Positions 10,439-56,520 of a stretch of DNA of 56,520 nucleotides are shown here, piece by piece. Position 1 is the first letter of the stretch. Each line of letters starts with the position of its first letter. The position numbers and the translations under genes are program-made. The stretch covers positions 1 to 56,520 of IMG/VR virus record IMGVR_UViG_3300034072_001152. One strand, given 5' to 3'. The stretch is from a virus (lineage: Duplodnaviria; Caudoviricetes). The notes below the pieces were generated by a model that saw only the letters and a list, made by a program, of their open reading frames with translations, did no database searches and was not told the origin of the DNA.

Positions 10439-12849
10439 GCCGCGCCCGCCTCAGCCGCGATAGCCCCAACCGGGGTAGCGGGTGCCGTCAGCGCTTCGAT
10501 CTCGGCCCAAAGCTCGGCGTTTTCAGTCTCGGCCATCTCGGCGCGGCGCTCCAAGGCGGTGACAAGCCCGCGCATCTCGTCACGCATCGCCTTGGCCTCG
10601 GCGGCCTCTTGCTCGGCAAGGCGGGCGCGGTCCTGAACGGCGCGTTCCCGGTTCTCCACGCCCCGCACATAAGTCGCCGCGCTTGTCTCGATCGCCTCGG
10701 CATTGGCCTTTGCGGCATCGCGCTCGGCTTTCACGCGCTGATATTCGGCCTCGGTCGTTTCGGCCATGTCGCGGAAGGCGGCCGCGCCGGCGACGGCATA
10801 GCGCCGCGCCTTCCGTTCCGCCCAGGCGCGGCGGATCGCCCGTTCATGCGCTGGGGTCCGCTTGGGCCGTGCGGATGCGACGGGTAGGGCCGCAAGCAAG
10901 GCTTCGATCTCGGCGAGGCGCGCCCGGACGGCTGCGATAGGGTCCGGGTCGGCATCGCAAGGCGTCTCAGCCGCGACAGGGGCCGCAACGGGCGCGATTT
11001 CGGGCATCGGGGCGGCATGGGTAGCGGGCGCGGGCTCGCCATCGCAGGGAAGGGCCGTTTCCGGGGCGCTGGCGGTATTTCCGATTTCAGCGGAAATAGC
11101 TTCCACGGTAGGGGCCGCCGCTTCGATCGCCGGCGCCTCAGTCATGATAGCCTCGCCCGCCAGCGCCGCCGCGACTTGTTCCCGGCTGACATATTCCCGC
11201 GCCGCACCCGCCTTCGGGCATCGGCCATCCTTGCCGACACAGAGCAAGCGAGAGTCGCCTTGTTCATAGCACCAGGCCGACACGTAACGCGCCCGGCCAT
11301 CGGCGCCGGGGATCTCGATCACTTCCCACACCGAGTCCCCGATCAGCGCCGCCACTTGTTCCTTGCTCAAGTGAATCTGGGTAGCCCCGGAATTGACCGC
11401 GACGGGATAGCGGCGGTCGCCTTCCACGGTGACGGAATAGTCGGGCTCGATCGCCGGGCCGCCTGCCGGCATCAGGATTGAATAGCTGCCTTCCATGACT
11501 TCATCGAAGGCGGGGATAGTGATTTCCCGCTCGCAAAGCGCTTCCCAGTCTTGCACCGTTTCGGTTCGGGCCGGGTGCGTGACATAGCCGCCCACGGTAA
11601 GGCCCAGCACTCGCTCGCCTTCCGTCTGGATATGTCCCCAGGTTCGGGCAAGCGTGCTGCCGGGCGCATCATTGACCCGCTCAGCCTTCGCATTGTAGCT
11701 CGCCACGCTCGGCAAGCCTTGCCCCTCGGCTAGCGCCTTCAGATATTCCCGGGCATCATAGCGAGACATGCCATCGCTGTAGCGATAGCCCTTGCGCGGC
11801 TCGCTATCCTTCGCGAGCATCATGGCGCACCAGGCGAGTCCGGGATCGCTGGCAGCCGCGCCGAAATAGCGCTTCTCGCCCTCTTGCCACTCGACAGCCA
11901 CCGGCGCGGCCTTGGCGAAGGCTTCCATGGCGGCAAGCGGGCGGCCCGGCATCATGTCAGGGAAAAGCGGGGCCTCGCCTTGACTGGTAGGGGTCGCCAT
12001 GCCTTCAAAGGCGCGCGGCCAATCGGGAAAAGTCCCGTCGATCAGCTTCGACACGATCCGCACCGGGCCGAACCGCACCGCGACCTTTCCCGCGCTGTCA
12101 TTACCGAACCGGGATAGGGTGACAGCCTCGCCCGCGTCATAGATCTTCGCCGCTGCGAGGATCACGGCCCCGGTCTTGCGCGGCAAGATTGCATCCTGCC
12201 AGCCTGCCAGCCCTGCCGGCATCGGACGCGATGCGGCGGCCATGTTGCTGCCATCGGTCGCCACCATCACAAGACTATCGCGCCCGGCCATGTCGCGGGC
12301 CTGCATTGCATAGCCGTTCAGATAATAGCGCGTCTCTTCAGTCGACACGGCGGGCGCGAGCGCCTTCAGATCCGCAAGGAATTGCCCGGCCGGGATAGGG
12401 GCGGACATGTCAGGCGCGGGGACATATGCCAGCGCCGGGAACAATTCGGCGTCATGGCCGCGCAGGGCCCAGACACCGCGCCCGGCCTTCAGCGTCGCCC
12501 GGTTGCTGTCTGTCTGTGTCAGCCGCACCCGGTCGCTATCCTTGCGAGCCTTTGCCAGCGCATCGGAAAGCGGCCCCGCATCCAAGCACAGGCGGCCCGG
12601 CTCGATTGTCTCGCCAGCATCGGCTTGCAGCTCGATACGCGCCAAGATGTCCAAATCGGTCCCGGACAGGGTGACGCGGCCGCAAGGTTCCACTTCGATC
12701 AGCAGTGCCGACAAAACCGGGATAGAGTTGCGCCGCTCGATCACCTTGGACGCGAGCAGCTTTGCCGCGTTGGCGAATTCGGCGGCGTTGAGGGTGACGA
12801 TTGCCCGCGCATCGGTTGCGGTTTCCGGGCTCATGGTTTCGTGTTGCAT
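10435..12849 (-). CDS. Large protein with N-terminal DNA polymerase III beta-clamp-like region and C-terminal coiled coil
   Basis: DnaN motifs IERRNSIPVLS, GTDLDI, STEETRYYLNG, VATDG, ILPRK, SKLIDGTFPDW in the first ~280 aa; AAAGGA RBS before MQHET. Confidence 0.8.
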   Translation of the reverse strand: MQHETMSPETATDARAIVTLNAAEFANAAKLLASKVIERRNSIPVLSALLIEVEPCGRVTLSGTDLDILARIELQADAGETIEPGRLCLDAGPLSDALAKARKDSDRVRLTQTDSNRATLKAGRGVWALRGHDAELFPALAYVPAPDMSAPIPAGQFLADLKALAPAVSTEETRYYLNGYAMQARDMAGRDSLVMVATDGSNMAAASRPMPAGLAGWQDAILPRKTGAVILAAAKIYDAGEAVTLSRFGNDSAGKVAVRFGPVRIVSKLIDGTFPDWPRAFEGMATPTSQGEAPLFPDMMPGRPLAAMEAFAKAAPVAVEWQEGEKRYFGAAASDPGLAWCAMMLAKDSEPRKGYRYSDGMSRYDAREYLKALAEGQGLPSVASYNAKAERVNDAPGSTLARTWGHIQTEGERVLGLTVGGYVTHPARTETVQDWEALCEREITIPAFDEVMEGSYSILMPAGGPAIEPDYSVTVEGDRRYPVAVNSGATQIHLSKEQVAALIGDSVWEVIEIPGADGRARYVSAWCYEQGDSRLLCVGKDGRCPKAGAAREYVSREQVAAALAGEAIMTEAPAIEAAAPTVEAISAEIGNTASAPETALPCDGEPAPATHAAPMPEIAPVAAPVAAETPCDADPDPIAAVRARLAEIEALLAALPVASARPKRTPAHERAIRRAWAERKARRYAVAGAAAFRDMAETTEAEYQRVKAERDAAKANAEAIETSAATYVRGVENRERAVQDRARLAEQEAAEAKAMRDEMRGLVTALERRAEMAETENAELWAEIEALTAPATPVGAIAAEAGAA

Positions 12850-51445: not shown

Positions 51446-52142
51446 TTATCGGATCGAGATTCCACCGGGCGGCTTCGTCACGCTGGGCGGCGAGTTGAAG
51501 AAGCTCGCCGACCGGCTCATTCTTGATGTCAGCGACCGGGCCGCGACCAAGCTGAAATCGCAGGTCCGGCAAGATATGGCTGGTGCCGGTCTGGGCCGGC
51601 TCGGTCAGGCGATCACCAGCACATCGGATAAGGCGCGCGGCGGCACGATCTATCGCCGCGGCGGTGTCAGCCGGGCATCGGGCATCGTCTATATCCGCAC
51701 CAAGGCGCCGCGCACTGTCGGTGCGATCATCTCCTACACCGAGGGCGCGGAAATTACCCCGAAGAAGGGGCGCTGGCTCTACTTCCCGACTGATCAAGCG
51801 CAGCGTCTGGTCGGCAAGGGCAAGGGCCGCCGCCGTCTGGTTCCGGCCGATTGGAAGTCGAGCGGCATGGAGGCCAAGCTAGGCCCGCTGTTCCGGATCC
51901 GTGGCAGCAGCGGCAACCCGTTGCTGGTCGTCCGCAATGTCGGCGTCAGCGAGGTCGGTGCGCGCGGTGGCAGGCCGCGATCGCTCACGAAGTCGGGCCG
52001 CCCGCGCAAGGGTGACAGGACTGCCGAACTGGTCGTCGTGTTCGTTGGCATCCCGCGCACCAGTCGCAAGGTCCGCGTCAATGTCCGACAGCGCGCGTTT
52101 CAGGCGGCGCAGCAGGCGACGGCCGAATTGCGAGGGGTCTAG
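51435..52142 (+). CDS. Basic neck/tail completion-like protein
   Basis: 235 aa, very basic; GAEITPKKGRWLYFPT motif. Confidence 0.65.
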   Translation: MPLDYRIEIPPGGFVTLGGELKKLADRLILDVSDRAATKLKSQVRQDMAGAGLGRLGQAITSTSDKARGGTIYRRGGVSRASGIVYIRTKAPRTVGAIISYTEGAEITPKKGRWLYFPTDQAQRLVGKGKGRRRLVPADWKSSGMEAKLGPLFRIRGSSGNPLLVVRNVGVSEVGARGGRPRSLTKSGRPRKGDRTAELVVVFVGIPRTSRKVRVNVRQRAFQAAQQATAELRGV

Positions 52143-52175
52143 GCCGTCAGGGGCCTCTGTGGTATGGCGGCGGCC

Positions 52176-52415
52176 ATGAAAAGGGTCATTCTTGTCGCCG
52201 CCATATTGCTCGCTGGTTGCGGGCAGAGTGCAGGTGAAAAAGCTGAGGCTGAGTATCGCATCGCTCGCGAGAGCGGGGTGACAAGCGATCAAGCCTGCGA
52301 ATTCGAGACGCGGATCAGAGACGCATACCTGTCTGATGAGAACCGCGAAAAATACCAGCGTTGGCGGATAGCTGCGGCCACGAGCTGCAATGAGGCGGCG
52401 CTTGAACGGCTTTAG
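52176..52415 (+). CDS. Small lipoprotein (moron; superinfection exclusion candidate)
   Basis: MKRVILVAAILLAGC lipobox. Confidence 0.7.
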   Translation: MKRVILVAAILLAGCGQSAGEKAEAEYRIARESGVTSDQACEFETRIRDAYLSDENREKYQRWRIAAATSCNEAALERL

Positions 52416-52591
52416 TCGAACGCCTTGCTGACTATCCTGCGGATTGCCTCAGGTCGATTTGGACTGTCGGGTTGAGCGCCCCGCCAAGCATCAATGCTGG
52501 CAAGTAAGGCGCTGTCGACGCGCACGGTGATCGGGGTATTAACCCCAGTTGCAGGCCGACCACGCTTTTTTGTGACACCAGTAATTGACAT
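52412..52591 (-). CDS. Ribbon-helix-helix (CopG/Arc-like) regulator, 59 aa, absent from the ORF track
   Basis: MSITGVTKKRGRPATGVNTPITVRVDSALLASIDAWRGAQPDSPNRPEAIRRIVSKAFD. Confidence 0.8.
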   Translation of the reverse strand: MSITGVTKKRGRPATGVNTPITVRVDSALLASIDAWRGAQPDSPNRPEAIRRIVSKAFD

Positions 52592-52613
52592 GATGAAATT
52601 GTGATGCCATAAA
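52570..52613 (+). promoter_or_regulatory. Sigma70 promoter with direct-repeat operator
   Basis: TTGACA (52585)-17-CATAAA (52608); repeats TTGTGACACCA (52570) and TTGTGATGCCA (52599). Confidence 0.75.
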
Positions 52614-52617
52614 AGGC

Positions 52618-52686
52618 GGGCCGGATCAAGAGGTGGTGCTCTTGTCCGGCCCTAACCAATCCGATCAACAGGAGATCGTTATGGCT
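52618..52686 (+). promoter_or_regulatory. Two-hairpin 5' leader, copy 5
   Basis: GGGCCGGA-t-CAAGAG-gtggtg-CTCTTG-TCCGGCCC TAACC aatc CGATC-aacagga-GATCG tt ATGGCT. Confidence 0.75.
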
Positions 52687-52734
52687 GACGTGACCAATAC
52701 CGCGCTTTGCGCGCTCCGCAAGGGAGGCGCATGA
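52681..52734 (+). CDS. Leader peptide (17 aa) coupled to the RAMP gene
   Basis: MADVTNTALCALRKGGA; its stop overlaps the ATG at 52731 (ATGA). Confidence 0.5.
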   Translation: MADVTNTALCALRKGGA

Positions 52735-53309
52735 TGGCGGCCTCCAAGACCATTGAGCTTCCCGCTCTGAAGATTCAGACGCTTTCGCTCATGCTGGTGG
52801 GCGATAGCCCGCTGATCGTCCACGCTTGGTCCGAGAAGGCCAAGCGCCAGATGCTCGACAAGCAGATGAAGAAGGCGACCAAGGCCAAGGAGGCGAAAGA
52901 CCCTGAGGCCGATTACGAGGCTTGCTTCTATCGCACGGAAACGGGGGGCTACGGCTTCCCGGCCATTGGGGTGAAGGCGGCGATGGTGTCGGCCTGCCGG
53001 TTCGTGGACATGAAAATGACCGAGGCTCGCGGGGCCTTTCACATCGACTGCGAGATGTTGTCGGTAATCGGCGACCCTCGCCCTCGCGAGGACATGGTGC
53101 GGGTCGGTATGGGCACCGCTGACATTCGCTATCGTCCGGAGTTCCCGCAGTGGAAAATTCCGGTCGACATCAAGTTCAACGCTGGCGTCATCAGTGCCGA
53201 GCAGATCGCAAACCTGCTTAACACGGCGGGCTTCGCCATCGGCATTGGCGAGTGGCGACCGGAGCGCAACGGTTCCTATGGCCGCTTTCATGTCGGGGGT
53301 GGCGAGTGA
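52731..53309 (+). CDS. Stand-alone Cas7/RAMP-like RNA-binding protein
   Basis: First strand LVGDSPLIVH, FPAIGVKAAMVSAC helix, RYRPEF..W..V.I.F, C-terminal Gly-rich loop AGFAIGIGEWRPERNGSYGRFHV; no other cas genes. Confidence 0.75.
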   Translation: MMAASKTIELPALKIQTLSLMLVGDSPLIVHAWSEKAKRQMLDKQMKKATKAKEAKDPEADYEACFYRTETGGYGFPAIGVKAAMVSACRFVDMKMTEARGAFHIDCEMLSVIGDPRPREDMVRVGMGTADIRYRPEFPQWKIPVDIKFNAGVISAEQIANLLNTAGFAIGIGEWRPERNGSYGRFHVGGGE

Positions 53310-53776
53310 TGATCTACAAGTGGAAAGAAGGCGCGCGGGTCAGCATTGACCCGCAAGCCGCTGGCGAAGAAATCGAGCGGGTCCGAGTTGCTCAGAATGG
53401 ACGGCTGCTCGCCCCTGATCTTGTCGAGAGTGCTCGCGACCCGTCATCGCCTCTGCATCCGGCTTTCGAGTGGGATGACGCAACGGCTGCCGAAAACTGG
53501 CGGGTCGAGCAGGCAAGCTACTTGATCCGGTCGATTGAGGTCATCGTCGAGCGGCAGGAAGAAGAAAGGCCGATCCGGGCGTTCGTCTCGGTGAAGCGCG
53601 ATGAGGACCGCTCCTATACGAGCGTTTCGCACGCGATGGCTGACCCCGATCTTCGTCAACAGGTGCTCGCTGGGGCGCTGAAGGAATTGGAAGCGTGGCG
53701 GGTTCGCTACGCAGAGCTTGTCGAACTGGCGAAGGTTTTCGCCGCGATCGACGAGGCTCGGGCCGCCAATGAATAG
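53309..53776 (+). CDS. Partner protein of the RAMP/pentamer-array cassette
   Basis: 155 aa, TGATG overlap; VESARDPSSPLHPAFEWDD..AA..WR..QA..LIRSI motif. Confidence 0.8.
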   Translation: MIYKWKEGARVSIDPQAAGEEIERVRVAQNGRLLAPDLVESARDPSSPLHPAFEWDDATAAENWRVEQASYLIRSIEVIVERQEEERPIRAFVSVKRDEDRSYTSVSHAMADPDLRQQVLAGALKELEAWRVRYAELVELAKVFAAIDEARAANE

Positions 53777-53785
53777 GGCTCGAAA

Positions 53786-53945
53786 CATGGCAGGCGTGGC
53801 AGGGCTAGGCTCGGCAGGGCTCGGCCGGGCGTGGCGCGGCTGGGTGAGGCATGGCAGGCGAGGTTAGGCTCGGCGCGTCCTAGTAGGGCAAGGCATGGCG
53901 GGGCAAGGCATGGCGAGTTGAGGCTCGGCAGGCTTGCCTAGGCAG
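53786..53945 (+). ncRNA. GGY-NN pentamer array, two guide-like units
   Basis: 12 pentamers (53793..53852) and 14 pentamers (53857..53926) delimited by GGCA tetramers at 53789, 53853 and 53927; 23 of 26 begin with GGY. Confidence 0.8.
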
Positions 53946-53964
53946 TCAGCCACTAAGCAACCCG

Positions 53965-53997
53965 GAGGGGGTCACGAAAGTGGCCCCCTCTTTATTT
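53965..53997 (+). terminator. Intrinsic terminator closing the cassette
   Basis: GAGGGGGTCAC-gaaa-GTGGCCCCCTC-TTTATTT. Confidence 0.85.
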
Positions 53998-54017
53998 GGA
54001 GAAACGGAAAGAAGAGA

Positions 54018-56520
54018 ATGTCACAATCATCTGTTTTTCCGATTTTTTTGCGAGCCGAATACCGCGATAGCACCGCGCTTCAACGCTTTCAGAGCGATGC
54101 GCAGCGGGCTGCGCAGGCCGCCAAGCGCGAGTTTCAGGGGGTGAAGGCGGCGCTCGACGCGGCTCTGACACGACCTCGCACCAGTGGCGGCAGCCTAGAC
54201 CTAGGGGTTGATGAGCTTCGCCGGGCAGCGCAGGCTCAGCAGGAGGTCGCTGCAGCGGCGAGACAGGTTGCCGAGGCGACCCGGCGAGCAGCACAGGCCA
54301 GCGGGAGCTTTGACGCCTCGCTCTCCCGGTCGACCCGTGCGGCCTTCGAGTATGCGAACGCGCAGGAACGCTCGTCGCGCGAGATGCTTGAGCAGCTCTC
54401 TCTTCTCGACCGCGTGCAGGCTGAGCTAAATCAGGTCGCCAGCGCGTCGGATGCGGTCACGGCAGCGAACCGACGCGGCACCTCGGTATCGGGGCAACAG
54501 CGGCAGGGATTGCAACAGCTCTCGTTTCAGCTGAATGACGTGGCGACGCAATTCGCCCTTGGAGCGAGCGCCACCCAGATTTTCGCGGCGCAGTCGGGTC
54601 AGGTTATCCAGGCGTTGCAGACGATGACGGGAGGCACCAGCCGCCTAGCTGCCTTCCTCGGTGGGCCTTGGGGGTTGGCACTCACCTCGGCCGCGATCGT
54701 CGTTTCACCCTTCATCGGCAGGCTGTTCGAGGCGGGTGAGGCCAGCGACAAGATGAGCAAGGCGCTCGATCAGGCCCGGTTCGCGAGTGACGGCATGGCC
54801 TCGGCTCAGAGCATCCTCGGCGATGTCATCGATCTGACGACCGGCAGGATGAAGGACCAGACCAATCAGGCGGTCATACTCGCGCGGGCTCAGCTGCAGC
54901 TGGCCGAGGTCCGGGCCCGGGTTGCAGCGAATGAAGCGCGCACCACGTTGCAGGGTGCTGCACGGCGGACCACCCAAGTCGATATTGCATCGGCTGGCAC
55001 TGGAAGTTTCGGCGGCACCGTGTTCCGCAGTGTCCGGCGCCCGACTATCTCAGCAGCCGCGGCGCGACAGGCCCTTGCAGGTGATACGCAGGGGGCCCTC
55101 GATGCGCTGAAGGAAGCGGTCGACACGGGCAAGACGACTGCGGCGATCTACGCCGAGACGGCAACGGCGATCGCAAACCTCGGTGCCGAGACTGAAAACA
55201 TGAAGCGGTTCGGCGACGCGCTGCGGGCCTTGGAAGGCGACCAGAGTGCTCTGCGCCAGTTCATCCGTCCTGACAGATCTCGCACGCCGCGCGGTGGCGA
55301 TGAAGCCAAGCGCCAGGCACGGGAGGCGGAACGGCTGGCCACGTTCGGCGAGCAGGCGGCGGAGAGTATCGCCCGGTTGAACGAGCGGTTCGACGAGCAG
55401 CCCCGTTTGATCGATCAGGCATCGCAGGCAACGCGGCAGCTCGATGCGCTGATTTCCGACCTCAGCGAGCGCAAGCCCGCCAACTTCGAGGCTCTGATCG
55501 CCGATGCGGAGAAGGCCAAGGCGACCGTGCAAGCGGCGCTGACCCGTCCCTTCGACGACTTGCGGCGCGAGAGCGAGGAACGCCTTGAGATTGAGCAGCT
55601 GCTCGCGCAAGGCCGGGAAGATGAGGCCGTCGCCTTGCAAGAGGTCTTGCGCCTGAAGCGGCAGATCGGCGGCGTTACCGAAGAGCAGCGCGCCGAGGTC
55701 GAGGCGATCGTTCGGGCCGAAGCGGCCAAGACCCGTGAGCTTCGGGTGCAGCAACAGCTGTTCGCCGCACAACTCGAAGTGATCGACACGGTGCAGCGCT
55801 CGCTCACCGATTTGCTGAGCGGTCGCTCGACCGATTTCTTCGGGGATTTCCGGCAAGCCCTTCGCGACCTGCAAGGGCAACGGCTCTTCGAAAACATCTT
55901 CGGAGAGGCCTTCAGGGGCATCCGGGATGAGCTTCAGGCCAACACGCCGCTTGGCAGGGCGAACAAGGCGCTGGCGGACGAGACGAACAAGGCGGCGCAG
56001 ACCGTCAGTGTTGCGAAAGATGCGCTCGCTGATTTGGCCGACGCTTTTGCTCAGGGTGCAGCCCGCATTCGCAATGGTGGGGCCGCAAACGACAACGGCT
56101 TTGCAGCGGCGTTCGGCAACGGTGCTTCGGTAGGAGCCGGTGCGCTAGGGCTGGGCGGTGCGGCGCAGCGCTTCTTGAACAGCGCCCGAGGTAACGAAAT
56201 CCTTGTCGAAGCCAAGATCGCCCGCAACTCAGTGACCGATCTTGCCAAGCTCATCAGCACGGGCATCGGTGACAGCATCGGAGAGCAGCTCGAGGATGTG
56301 CTGGGCACACGCTTTGCGCAGGTCCTTGGCGACACCATCGGCGGCTTTATCGCCGGCAAGACGCTTGGCGGCACCACGGGCGGCATCTTGGGCGCGCTTG
56401 AGGGCCTGACCGGAAGCATCAAGGGGCTTGAGGGCCTTTCCGAGACGTTCGGCGCTTTCCTGAACGGCTCGGCCATCGGTTCGCAGGTTTCCGGCATCAG
56501 CAAGGCTCTCGGCATCGGCG
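54018..56520 (+). CDS. Tail tape measure protein, N-terminal part (about 1236 aa in total across the origin)
   Basis: Open from ATG 54018 to the contig end; LSFQLNDVATQFALG..QIFAAQSGQV lambda-type TMP motif; Ala-rich helical. Confidence 0.88.
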   Translation, partial: MSQSSVFPIFLRAEYRDSTALQRFQSDAQRAAQAAKREFQGVKAALDAALTRPRTSGGSLDLGVDELRRAAQAQQEVAAAARQVAEATRRAAQASGSFDASLSRSTRAAFEYANAQERSSREMLEQLSLLDRVQAELNQVASASDAVTAANRRGTSVSGQQRQGLQQLSFQLNDVATQFALGASATQIFAAQSGQVIQALQTMTGGTSRLAAFLGGPWGLALTSAAIVVSPFIGRLFEAGEASDKMSKALDQARFASDGMASAQSILGDVIDLTTGRMKDQTNQAVILARAQLQLAEVRARVAANEARTTLQGAARRTTQVDIASAGTGSFGGTVFRSVRRPTISAAAARQALAGDTQGALDALKEAVDTGKTTAAIYAETATAIANLGAETENMKRFGDALRALEGDQSALRQFIRPDRSRTPRGGDEAKRQAREAERLATFGEQAAESIARLNERFDEQPRLIDQASQATRQLDALISDLSERKPANFEALIADAEKAKATVQAALTRPFDDLRRESEERLEIEQLLAQGREDEAVALQEVLRLKRQIGGVTEEQRAEVEAIVRAEAAKTRELRVQQQLFAAQLEVIDTVQRSLTDLLSGRSTDFFGDFRQALRDLQGQRLFENIFGEAFRGIRDELQANTPLGRANKALADETNKAAQTVSVAKDALADLADAFAQGAARIRNGGAANDNGFAAAFGNGASVGAGALGLGGAAQRFLNSARGNEILVEAKIARNSVTDLAKLISTGIGDSIGEQLEDVLGTRFAQVLGDTIGGFIAGKTLGGTTGGILGALEGLTGSIKGLEGLSETFGAFLNGSAIGSQVSGISKALGIG
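56394..56520. repeat. Terminal duplication identical to 1..127
   Basis: Exact identity. Confidence 0.95.

What the first reader, a model, noticed from the sequence alone, without database searches (positions are those of the whole stretch)
53786..53945. Pentamer array is segmented into two guide-like units with hypervariable dinucleotides
Seen: unit 1 NN = GT AG TA TC AG TC CG GT GC TG GA AT. Unit 2 NN = GA TA TC GC CT AG AA AT GG AA AT GA GA TC. Units are separated by a one-base phase slip (GGCA) inside CATGGCAGGCG, identical at 53786 and 53850, with the variant CTCGGCAGGCT at 53924. Three trimers deviate from GGY (GTC, AGT, GTT). A fixed scaffold with freely varying NN is unlike a slippage microsatellite. 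Inference: GGCA boundaries are processing or capping sites that release guides of about 64 and 74 nt.
Basis: partly seen in the sequence, partly recalled or inferred. Interest (0 to 1): 0.9.

Follow-up and report, generated by a model that had tools for sequence, protein, structure and literature searches.

The report
Phage VIPR guide-RNA array, two guides

Summary
Window 53793-53930 (+) holds two blocks of GGY-NN pentamers, with 12 and 14 NN. Each block ends in a four-base GGCA step.

The array closes a three-part operon:
- a 192-aa Cas7-like RAMP gene (52731-53309);
- a partner gene (53309-53776);
- the array and a strong terminator.

The same three parts, in varying order, occur in Mycobacterium and Gordonia phages and in most of 67 IMG/VR loci.

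The protein is a distant homologue of the Vipr protein of Escherichia phage SUSP1. It keeps the residues reported to hold the GG of each repeat. The locus therefore belongs to the VIPR family of three 2026 bioRxiv preprints, and its layout fits their "staggered" vrRNA arrays.

Under the published one-base-skip rule, a guide of a related phage matches this window's own vipr gene 22/22. This window's guide 2 matches tape-measure genes 22/28 (its own) and 23/28 (a relative). No exact target of the window's guides was found. No RNA data exist, so cutting at GGCA is inferred, not shown.

Verdict: a new member of a known kind. The scan has met VIPR before on other DNA.

The parts
52412..52591 (-). 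Small ribbon-helix-helix gene transcribed divergently upstream of vipr. Possible regulator of the cassette; this role is inferred.
   Evidence: phrog_4738 'transcriptional repressor', E 2.2e-06. Weak Pfam RHH_1 below cut-off. A homologue lies on the minus strand upstream of vipr in 19 fetched locus ids, L075 and L007 being one contig.
52731..53309 (+). vipr: 192-aa minimal RAMP (Cas7-like) protein, predicted to coat the vrRNA with one protomer per pentamer.
   Evidence: phrog_4652, E 6.7e-33. AF2 pLDDT 87.5. Foldseek top hits are all Cas7-type subunits, 69 hits at E<=1e-3. BLASTP to SUSP1 Vipr E 1e-12, 24% identity. SUSP1 H17/R138/D177/W178/R179 align to H31/R135/E174/W175/R176.
53088..53119 (+). 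[quoted passage not shown]
   Evidence: No hit with skip 0 or 2, or with shuffled NN order (3 runs) at the same threshold.
53309..53776 (+). vap-like accessory gene (155 aa). Its ATG overlaps the vipr stop codon (ATGA). Function unknown.
   Evidence: phrog_15946, E 1.9e-23. tblastn hit near vipr in 56 of 67 IMG/VR loci, and in BobaPhett and Pipp. AF2 pLDDT 89.6 but no fold match.
53758..53783 (+). Conserved leader hairpin spanning the vap stop codon. It is followed by AAAC-AT-GGCA, the first boundary.
   Evidence: RNAalifold on 16 loci: 8 pairs, 3 of them with compensatory changes.
53793..53856 (+). vrRNA unit 1: 12 GGY-NN pentamers + GGCA (64 nt).
53857..53930 (+). vrRNA unit 2: 14 pentamers + GGCA (74 nt). 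Three degenerate triplets (GTC, AGT, GTT).
53931..53963 (+). Trailer after the last GGCA boundary. Conserved in the two relatives that also sit before a tape-measure gene.
   Evidence: 84% and 80% identical to L003 and L007 over trailer plus terminator. Sequences.
53964..53997 (+). Intrinsic terminator closing the vipr-vap-array transcription unit.
   Evidence: 12-pair stem (8 G-C), loop of 4, then a T-rich tail. It also forms in the MFE fold.
54024..54064 (-). Best match of unit 2 under the 1-nt skip rule: codons 3-16 of the phage's own tape-measure gene, 22/28, with skipped bases at wobble positions.
   Evidence: 0 of 1000 NN-order shuffles reach 22. The homologous site in L003 scores 23/28.

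Best explanation
The tract is a two-guide vrRNA array of a VIPR (Viral Interference Programmable Repeat) system carried by a temperate siphophage of Sphingomonadales-type hosts. vipr, its partner gene and the array are most likely one transcript ending at the terminator at 53964-53997. By homology with the SUSP1 system, Vipr protomers coat the RNA one per pentamer. They bury each GGY and expose each NN, and the filament then binds double-stranded DNA that reads NN-x-NN-x, silencing transcription. The four-base GGCA step breaks the five-base register and marks where one guide ends and the next begins, giving guides with 12 and 14 NN. The likely prey are competing related phages. Guide 2 is aimed at the first codons of a tape-measure gene allele close to, but not identical with, the phage's own. 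Relatives in turn carry guides aimed at this phage's vipr gene. Shown here: the anatomy, the homology, the fold, the conservation pattern, and the skip-1 matches. Inferred: transcription, cutting at GGCA, filament formation, DNA silencing, and the true targets.
For: Anatomy.
Conserved three-part module across phyla: array, phrog_4652 gene and phrog_15946 gene are found in Mycobacterium phage BobaPhett and Gordonia phage Pipp, in different orders. A + strand chain of 8 or more GGY occurs in 57 of 67 IMG/VR loci, and a vap hit in 56 of 67.
RAMP fold: pLDDT 87.5; best Foldseek hits are Csm3, type VII Cas7, Cmr4 and Cas7-11 at E about 1e-5.
Homology to the characterised Vipr: tblastn E 8e-7 to SUSP2; BLASTP 1e-12 to SUSP1 and SUSP2. 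GG-contact residues are conserved; R135 and R176 are invariant in 55 family members.
SUSP2 has GGT-NN arrays on both sides of its gene.
Scaffold fixed, NN free.
Unit lengths 5n+4: 32 of 34 segments in close relatives and 193 of 260 overall. Sizes of 8-17 NN overlap the published 9-16.
Skip-1 rule: 66 strict hits from 2 guides, against 0 for skip 0, skip 2 and three shuffles. The carriers' own vipr genes escape with 6 and 3 mismatches, including Arg CGN to AGG.
Guide 2 against the tape-measure gene: 22/28 on its own gene, 23/28 on L003, 0 of 1000 shuffles as good, skips at wobble positions.
Literature.
Against: No RNA evidence: no RNA run holds the locus, so expression and cutting at GGCA are untested.
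No full target for either guide:
- 0 exact matches in IMG/VR;
- 0 exact matches in JGI metagenome contigs, where guide 2 was searched without its two end NN;
- 0 matches of guide 2 with up to 3 mismatches in 4 + 401 genomes.
Guide 1's best match (18/24, own tape-measure gene) is reached by 26 of 1000 shuffles, so it is weak.
Guide 2 has three degenerate triplets, one of them (AGT) lacking the first G, which is G in 96% of pentamers. It may be partly eroded.
The partner protein shows no similarity to SUSP2 gp039 and has no fold match, so its equivalence to a published vap class is open.
No repeated 3' 'tail' of the type II kind follows each unit.
The VIPR type (I-VII) could not be assigned because the supplements are closed.
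Confidence: 0.88

Rival explanations
1. A protein-binding RNA sponge or attenuator of the TRAP type: a multimeric protein binds the GGY triplets spaced five bases apart, but the NN carry no information and nothing is guided.
For: Triplets with 2-nt spacers and blocks of 12-14 units recall the TRAP binding site (recalled, not tested). The array sits in a 3' untranslated position before a terminator.
Against: A related guide matches a target 22/22 at NN positions only, and only with a one-base skip; shuffled NN orders give nothing. The same NN series is kept in L004 and L007 while the Y of the scaffold differs. The neighbouring protein has a Cas7-like fold, not a TRAP fold.
Confidence: 0.04
2. 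A decayed or orphaned VIPR array: the family assignment is right, but these two guides no longer have living targets or no longer load. They would be relics carried with the cassette.
For: No exact target in two large collections and none within 3 mismatches in 405 genomes. Three degenerate triplets in unit 2. The best matches are 75-82%.
Against: vipr and the partner gene are intact and the ruler (5n+4) is kept in both units. GTY triplets are common in the family (170 of 1613 pentamers are GTT or GTC).
Confidence: 0.07
3. A slippage microsatellite, a glycine-rich coding tract, or a DNA-level element (G-quadruplex, packaging or origin repeats) with no RNA role.
For: It is G-rich and strand-asymmetric. 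GenBank annotates a 'hypothetical protein' over the array in several mycobacteriophages. A 49-aa ORF overlaps it here.
Against: A period of 5 with -1 slips cannot keep a reading frame. NN vary freely between close relatives while the scaffold is fixed. The array is always co-oriented with vipr, and no GGCA|GGY-delimited unit occurs on the minus strand. It lies between a stop codon and a terminator.
Confidence: 0.01

Closest known systems
VIPR systems with 'staggered' vrRNA arrays (bioRxiv 10.64898/2026.04.26.720920; main text and legend of fig. S18 read, figure and supplementary data not seen)
   Same: A Vipr RAMP gene plus an accessory gene plus head-to-tail vrRNAs made of GGY/NN pentamers with no spacer structure between them. 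The end of one unit is the start of the next. It is phage-borne.
   Different: I could not see the figure, so I cannot say whether the published junction is the GGCA|GGY step found here. The type number (I-VII) is unassigned. The partner gene (phrog_15946) could not be equated with any of vap1-6.
Type II VIPR of Escherichia phage SUSP1 and the Pseudomonas fulva prophage (same preprint; cryo-EM preprint 10.64898/2026.04.26.720927, section 5 read)
   Same: Homologous Vipr (BLASTP 1e-12, 24% identity) with the GG-contact residues kept. 9-16 YNNGG repeats per guide. The one-base skip falls on codon wobble positions. A hairpin precedes the repeats.
   Different: In SUSP2, the close relative read here, the guides are separate genes, each with its own upstream hairpin and a longer non-repeat 3' stretch, and GGT dominates. 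The preprint describes an invariable structured 3' tail for SUSP1. Here two guides abut directly, GGC dominates, and only the last unit is followed by a trailer. The accessory proteins are unrelated in sequence.
vipr-targeting vrRNAs in SUSP1-family phages (bioRxiv 10.64898/2026.10.15.759431, abstract and section 8 read)
   Same: Guides of relatives hit the vipr gene of rival phages, while the carrier's own copy scores lower.
   Different: Here the carriers (L007, L004, L046) keep their own vipr genes, the hosts are Sphingomonadales-type rather than enterobacteria, and the hit site is codons 120-130.
Class 1 CRISPR backbone (Cas7/Csm3/Cmr4 filament on crRNA)
   Same: Same fold by Foldseek. A periodic filament on RNA with a thumb that interrupts pairing at fixed intervals.
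   Different: No CRISPR repeats, no cas1/cas2 and no other cas genes were seen around the locus. The period is 5 with 2 read bases, not 6 with 5. The targeting information is interleaved with the scaffold.

Membership tests
VIPR system | Vipr protein: a small stand-alone RAMP (RRM core, glycine-rich loop, thumb) outside any CRISPR-cas locus | tested here: met
   192 aa. AF2 pLDDT 87.5. The listed Foldseek PDB hits are Cas7-type RAMP subunits (Csm, Cmr, type VII Cas7, Cas7-11), the best at E 1.5e-5; 69 hits at E<=1e-3. C-terminal G-rich loop, with G167, G171 and G184 invariant in 55 sequences. No cas genes or CRISPR repeats among the neighbours.
VIPR system | Sequence homology to an experimentally characterised Vipr | tested here: met
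   BLASTP to SUSP1 Vipr (L085) E 1e-12, 24% identity over 174 residues. tblastn E 8e-7 to SUSP2 within 159 phage records.
VIPR system | Residues that hold G1 and G2 of the repeat (SUSP1 H17, D177, R138, W178; R179 for Y3) | tested here: met
   They align to H31, E174 (conservative), R135, W175 and R176. R135 and R176 are invariant in alignment A1. The Y3 pocket residues E71/M72 are not conserved (I79/G80).
VIPR system | vrRNA of 9-16 YNNGG repeats with conserved GGY and hypervariable NN next to vipr | tested here: met
   Units of 12 and 14 repeats. Family statistics. The array diverges to scaffold level between close relatives.
VIPR system | Accessory vap gene beside vipr | tested here: inconclusive
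   A conserved partner gene is present (phrog_15946; 56 of 67 loci). It is unrelated to SUSP2 gp039 and has no fold match. The published vap classes are defined in supplements I could not open.
VIPR system | Targets read by the one-nucleotide-skip rule | tested here: met
   For the clade: 22/22 and 16/16 matches of related guides to this window's vipr, only with skip 1. For this window's own guides the result is partial: 22/28 and 23/28 for guide 2 (0 of 1000 shuffles), and 18/24 for guide 1 (26 of 1000 shuffles).
VIPR system | vrRNAs are expressed, processed to unit length and bound by Vipr | not testable with these tools
   No RNA run holds the locus.
VIPR type II (SUSP1-like) | Each vrRNA followed by an invariable structured 3' tail | tested here: not met
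   Unit 1 runs straight into unit 2 through GGCA|GGC. Only the last unit is followed by a 33-nt trailer and the terminator.
CRISPR-Cas | Repeat-spacer array with adaptation genes | tested here: not met
   No direct repeats of CRISPR size. No cas1/cas2 among the ORFs scanned near the locus.

The most novel reading that the evidence does not exclude
In this clade the four-base C-A-G-G step (a YNGG unit one base short) may itself be the ruler and the cut mark. Breaking the Vipr filament register would define guide ends without a hairpin, ribozyme or Cas6-like enzyme. The system would then serve exclusion between near-identical sibling phages. Both guides of this phage point at tape-measure gene alleles that differ from its own by first-position synonymous recoding (Arg CGN/AGR, Leu TTR/CTN) and a few residue changes. 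Relatives aim at its vipr gene and protect their own copy in the same way. That would make an arms race played in codon positions 1-2 directly readable from sequence.
Probability: 0.3. Interest if true: 0.6.

Novelty: new member of a known kind. Interest (0 to 1): 0.4.

Why it matters
VIPR is a very recent class of RNA-guided DNA binder, known from three 2026 preprints and characterised in enterobacterial and Pseudomonas phages.

This locus shows the canonical GGY code and the staggered layout in a high-GC alphaproteobacterial phage. The same Vipr and partner-gene subtype, with the same CATGGCA|GGC punctuation, is also in Mycobacterium and Gordonia phages, where GenBank annotates some of the arrays as protein genes.

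It also gives clean sequence-only support for the one-base-skip rule outside the published clades: a 22/22 match falling exactly between two boundaries. It gives a concrete pair of rivals for bench tests. It adds no new principle.

Tried and rejected
- Rfam: no family at gathering score in the whole window; only chance-level rows around the array.
- Promoter scan of 52000-55000: none found.
- Programmed-frameshift 'T' extension of a tail chaperone: considered because the array lies before the tape-measure gene. Dropped because the overlapping frame is only 49 aa and the NN vary freely.
- TRAP-like sponge, G-quadruplex and iteron readings: see the rival explanations.
- Exact-pattern target scans: guide 1 and guide 2 in IMG/VR; guide 2 core and guide 1 in JGI metagenome contigs. 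All gave 0 matches.
- Guide 2 with up to 3 mismatches: 0 of 4 and 0 of 401 genomes of the order of the closest host genome. These genomes are a sample only.
- RNA evidence: no RNA holder listed for 52600-54100. The one strong DNA holder is a subsurface metagenome run that may be the source sample.
- Partner protein: Foldseek PDB gave no hit at E<=1e-3; the weak winged-helix rows have probability below 0.1. VIA-align wide gave no Z>=5, mostly coiled-coil rows for residues 86-155.
- VIPR type assignment: the terms vap2-vap6 do not occur in the main text and the supplements are closed.
- Other short GGY chains in the window (10594-10654, 51563-51612, 52106-52176 and two on the minus strand): the two printed (51563-51612, 52106-52176) read as ordinary GC-rich sequence, not arrays; the others were not examined.

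Full report
**What is in the sequence**

The tract lies in the 241-bp gap between the stop codon of ORF 53309-53776 and the ATG of a tape-measure gene at 54018. GGY triplets recur every five bases in three registers. Each register change is a four-base GGCA step, inside CATGGCAGGCG at 53786 and 53850 and inside CTCGGCAGGCT at 53924.

Cutting at GGCA|GGC gives two units:
- unit 1, 53793-53856: 12 pentamers + GGCA;
- unit 2, 53857-53930: 14 pentamers + GGCA.

The pattern of four GGC at five-base steps occurs 10 times in the window, all of them here, against 0.11 expected. After the last boundary come a 33-nt trailer and a 12-pair terminator hairpin with a T-rich tail. Rfam has nothing for the region.

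**The neighbours and the conserved module**

The window is a phage record with tail genes around the locus. Directly upstream are a 192-aa gene (52731-53309, phrog_4652) and a 155-aa gene (53309-53776, phrog_15946). The second gene's ATG overlaps the first gene's stop codon. Neither has a Pfam family.

A blastn search with the region hit 28 phage records (27 Mycobacterium, 1 Gordonia), and only over the array. In Mycobacterium phage BobaPhett and Gordonia phage Pipp the hit is the same kind of GGC-NN array, including the CATGGCA|GGC motif. Both phages also carry homologues of both proteins (39-41% identity for the first). The order of the three parts differs:
- BobaPhett: array, gene, gene;
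- Pipp: gene, array, gene;
- this window: gene, gene, array.

Three parts that stay together while their order changes across phyla mark a functional module.

In 67 IMG/VR loci found with the first protein:
- 57 have a + strand chain of at least 8 GGY triplets; several of the 10 without are cut off just after the gene;
- 56 have a hit to the partner protein.

The family is large: 4312 clusters at 50% identity at E<=1e-3.

**Identity of the system**

A literature search found bioRxiv 10.64898/2026.04.26.720920. I read its Results, Discussion, the first part of its Methods and passages of its supplementary legends. It describes VIPR systems:
- a small stand-alone RAMP protein (Vipr) and an accessory gene (vap);
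- vrRNAs of 9-16 YNNGG repeats with conserved GGY and hypervariable NN;
[quoted passage not shown] Two further preprints exist. A cryo-EM study (section 5 read) reports one protomer per repeat and names the residues holding G1, G2 and Y3. A study of phage-satellite competition (abstract and section 8 read) reports guides aimed at rivals' vipr genes.

I tested membership as follows.
- **Fold.** The AF2 model of the 192-aa protein (pLDDT 87.5) finds Cas7-type subunits: Csm3, type VII Cas7, Cmr4 and Cas7-11. The best E-value is 1.5e-5 and TM-scores are about 0.5.
- **Homology.** tblastn finds 159 phage records, including the SUSP-type Felixounaviruses. BLASTP to the SUSP1 protein, fetched, gives E 1e-12.
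- **Contact residues.** SUSP1 H17, R138, D177, W178 and R179 align with H31, R135, E174, W175 and R176.
- **Arrays in the reference clade.** SUSP2 has GGT-NN arrays on both sides of its gene.

The partner protein could not be equated with a published vap. It shows no similarity to SUSP2 gp039 and has no fold match.

Compared with L003 and L007, DNA identities are:

| Part | Identity to L003 / L007 |
|---|---|
| vipr | 84% / 81% |
| leader | 89% / 85% |
| trailer | 84% / 80% |
| array | 58% / 62% |

The array value is about what the shared GGY alone gives, and the number of units differs (2 here, 3 in each relative). Over 1613 pentamers from 160 units (49 loci), G1 is 96%, G2 is 87% (T 11%) and Y3 is 94%, while N4 and N5 carry 1.94 and 1.99 bits.

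Segments between successive GGCA|GGY motifs have length 5n+4 in 32 of 34 cases among the close relatives and in 193 of 260 cases overall. None occurs on the minus strand. Unit sizes run from 8 to 17 NN, most often 9-11.

A hairpin spanning the partner gene's stop codon precedes the first boundary and shows compensatory changes in 3 of 8 pairs.

**Targets**

I scored all 160 units against the window and all loci under skips of 0-3 bases.

At a strict threshold only two skips gave hits:
- skip 1 gave 66 hits from 2 guides;
- skip 3 gave 51 hits, which are matches between arrays;
- skip 0, skip 2 and three NN-order shuffles gave none.

The two skip-1 guides (L007 4117-4175 and L004 4066-4109) share their first eight NN. 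They hit codons 120-130 of vipr in many loci, including this window at 53088-53119 with 22/22 and 16/16. The skips fall on wobble positions, and the match runs from the first NN of the unit to the last. The carriers' own vipr genes differ there at 6 and 3 read positions, including Arg CGN to AGG. A third guide (L046) matches 52911-52936 with 17/18.

For the window's own guides:
- **Guide 2.** Its best match is codons 3-16 of its own tape-measure gene (22/28). The homologous site in L003 scores 23/28, and no shuffle out of 1000 reaches 22.
- **Guide 1.** Its best match is 18/24, also in the tape-measure gene and in frame, but 26 of 1000 shuffles do as well.

Exact-match scans of IMG/VR and of JGI metagenome contigs found nothing. 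A search for guide 2 with up to 3 mismatches in 405 genomes also found nothing. The true targets are therefore unknown. The tape-measure gene of a sibling phage is the best lead.

**Context**

Relatives of the tape-measure gene come from Erythrobacter, Erythrobacteraceae, Novosphingobium and Croceicoccus assemblies.

Of the 13 loci fetched with the tape-measure protein:
- 10 have no vipr, no partner gene and no array within 3.5 kb upstream of the tape-measure gene;
- 2 are the contigs of L007 and L015;
- 1 (L082) has a distant vipr.

In the VIPR-less viral locus L083 the phrog_6367 gene ends about 80 bases before the tape-measure gene; in L082, which has only the distant vipr further upstream, about 70 bases before. 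The stretch 52164-54000 therefore looks like an inserted accessory cassette. It includes a divergent ribbon-helix-helix gene that recurs upstream of vipr in 19 loci.

**What remains inferred**

Transcription, cutting at GGCA, filament formation and silencing are carried over from the SUSP1 work. No RNA run holds this DNA. The VIPR type could not be assigned because the classification sits in figures and supplements that I could not see.

**Verdict**

This is a correct and well-read observation of a VIPR vrRNA array: a new member of a kind described in 2026 preprints. The scan has already met the kind on other DNA.

Noticed in passing
L001 2483-2647 (Mycobacterium phage BobaPhett gene 51); also the rows: GenBank annotates a 'hypothetical protein' CDS over the GGC-NN array in several cluster-F-like mycobacteriophages (e.g. 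BobaPhett 51, Gorge 53, DRBy19 51). The tract is the vrRNA array of a vipr (gene 52) and partner (gene 53) module, so these CDS calls are probably wrong.
   Followed up: partly
window 52412-52591 (-) and 52592-52730: A divergent ribbon-helix-helix gene sits upstream of vipr and recurs on the minus strand upstream of vipr in 19 related loci. It may control the cassette. An earlier scan note on another genome (e1-5351431) proposed an Arc/Mnt-type switch before a VIPR operon in a tail cluster, and part of that note later fell.
   Followed up: partly
window 52164-54000 versus L083 and L082: In L083 (no VIPR) and L082 (only a distant vipr further upstream) the phrog_6367 gene is followed directly by the tape-measure gene. 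Here an 83-aa ORF, the RHH gene, vipr, the partner gene and the array lie between them, so the cassette looks like a moron-type insertion.
   Followed up: partly
L022 3589-4324 and 4885-6140; L019; L032 2244-2987: Some relatives carry very long arrays (0.7-1.3 kb). L022 uses a different punctuation: a GGC-N-GTC four-base step instead of GGCA|GGY.
   Followed up: no
window 53945-53963 and the trailers shown; L001 about 2690-2710: A C/A-rich 'CAACC'-like motif recurs between the last boundary and the terminator in many loci, including BobaPhett. It could be a short 3' tail element. It was seen by eye only.
   Followed up: no
L004 4066-4109 and L007 4117-4175: Two phages share the same first eight NN (the anti-vipr guide). 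They differ in scaffold bases (GGC/GGT, GGC/GTC) and in guide length (8 versus 11 NN). This is direct evidence that selection acts on NN and not on the Y position.
   Followed up: yes
L055-L058, L063, L065, L066: Seven loci with a vipr homologue of 43-47% identity show no GGY chain by my criteria. They may use one of the alternative repeat consensuses mentioned in the preprint's methods.
   Followed up: no
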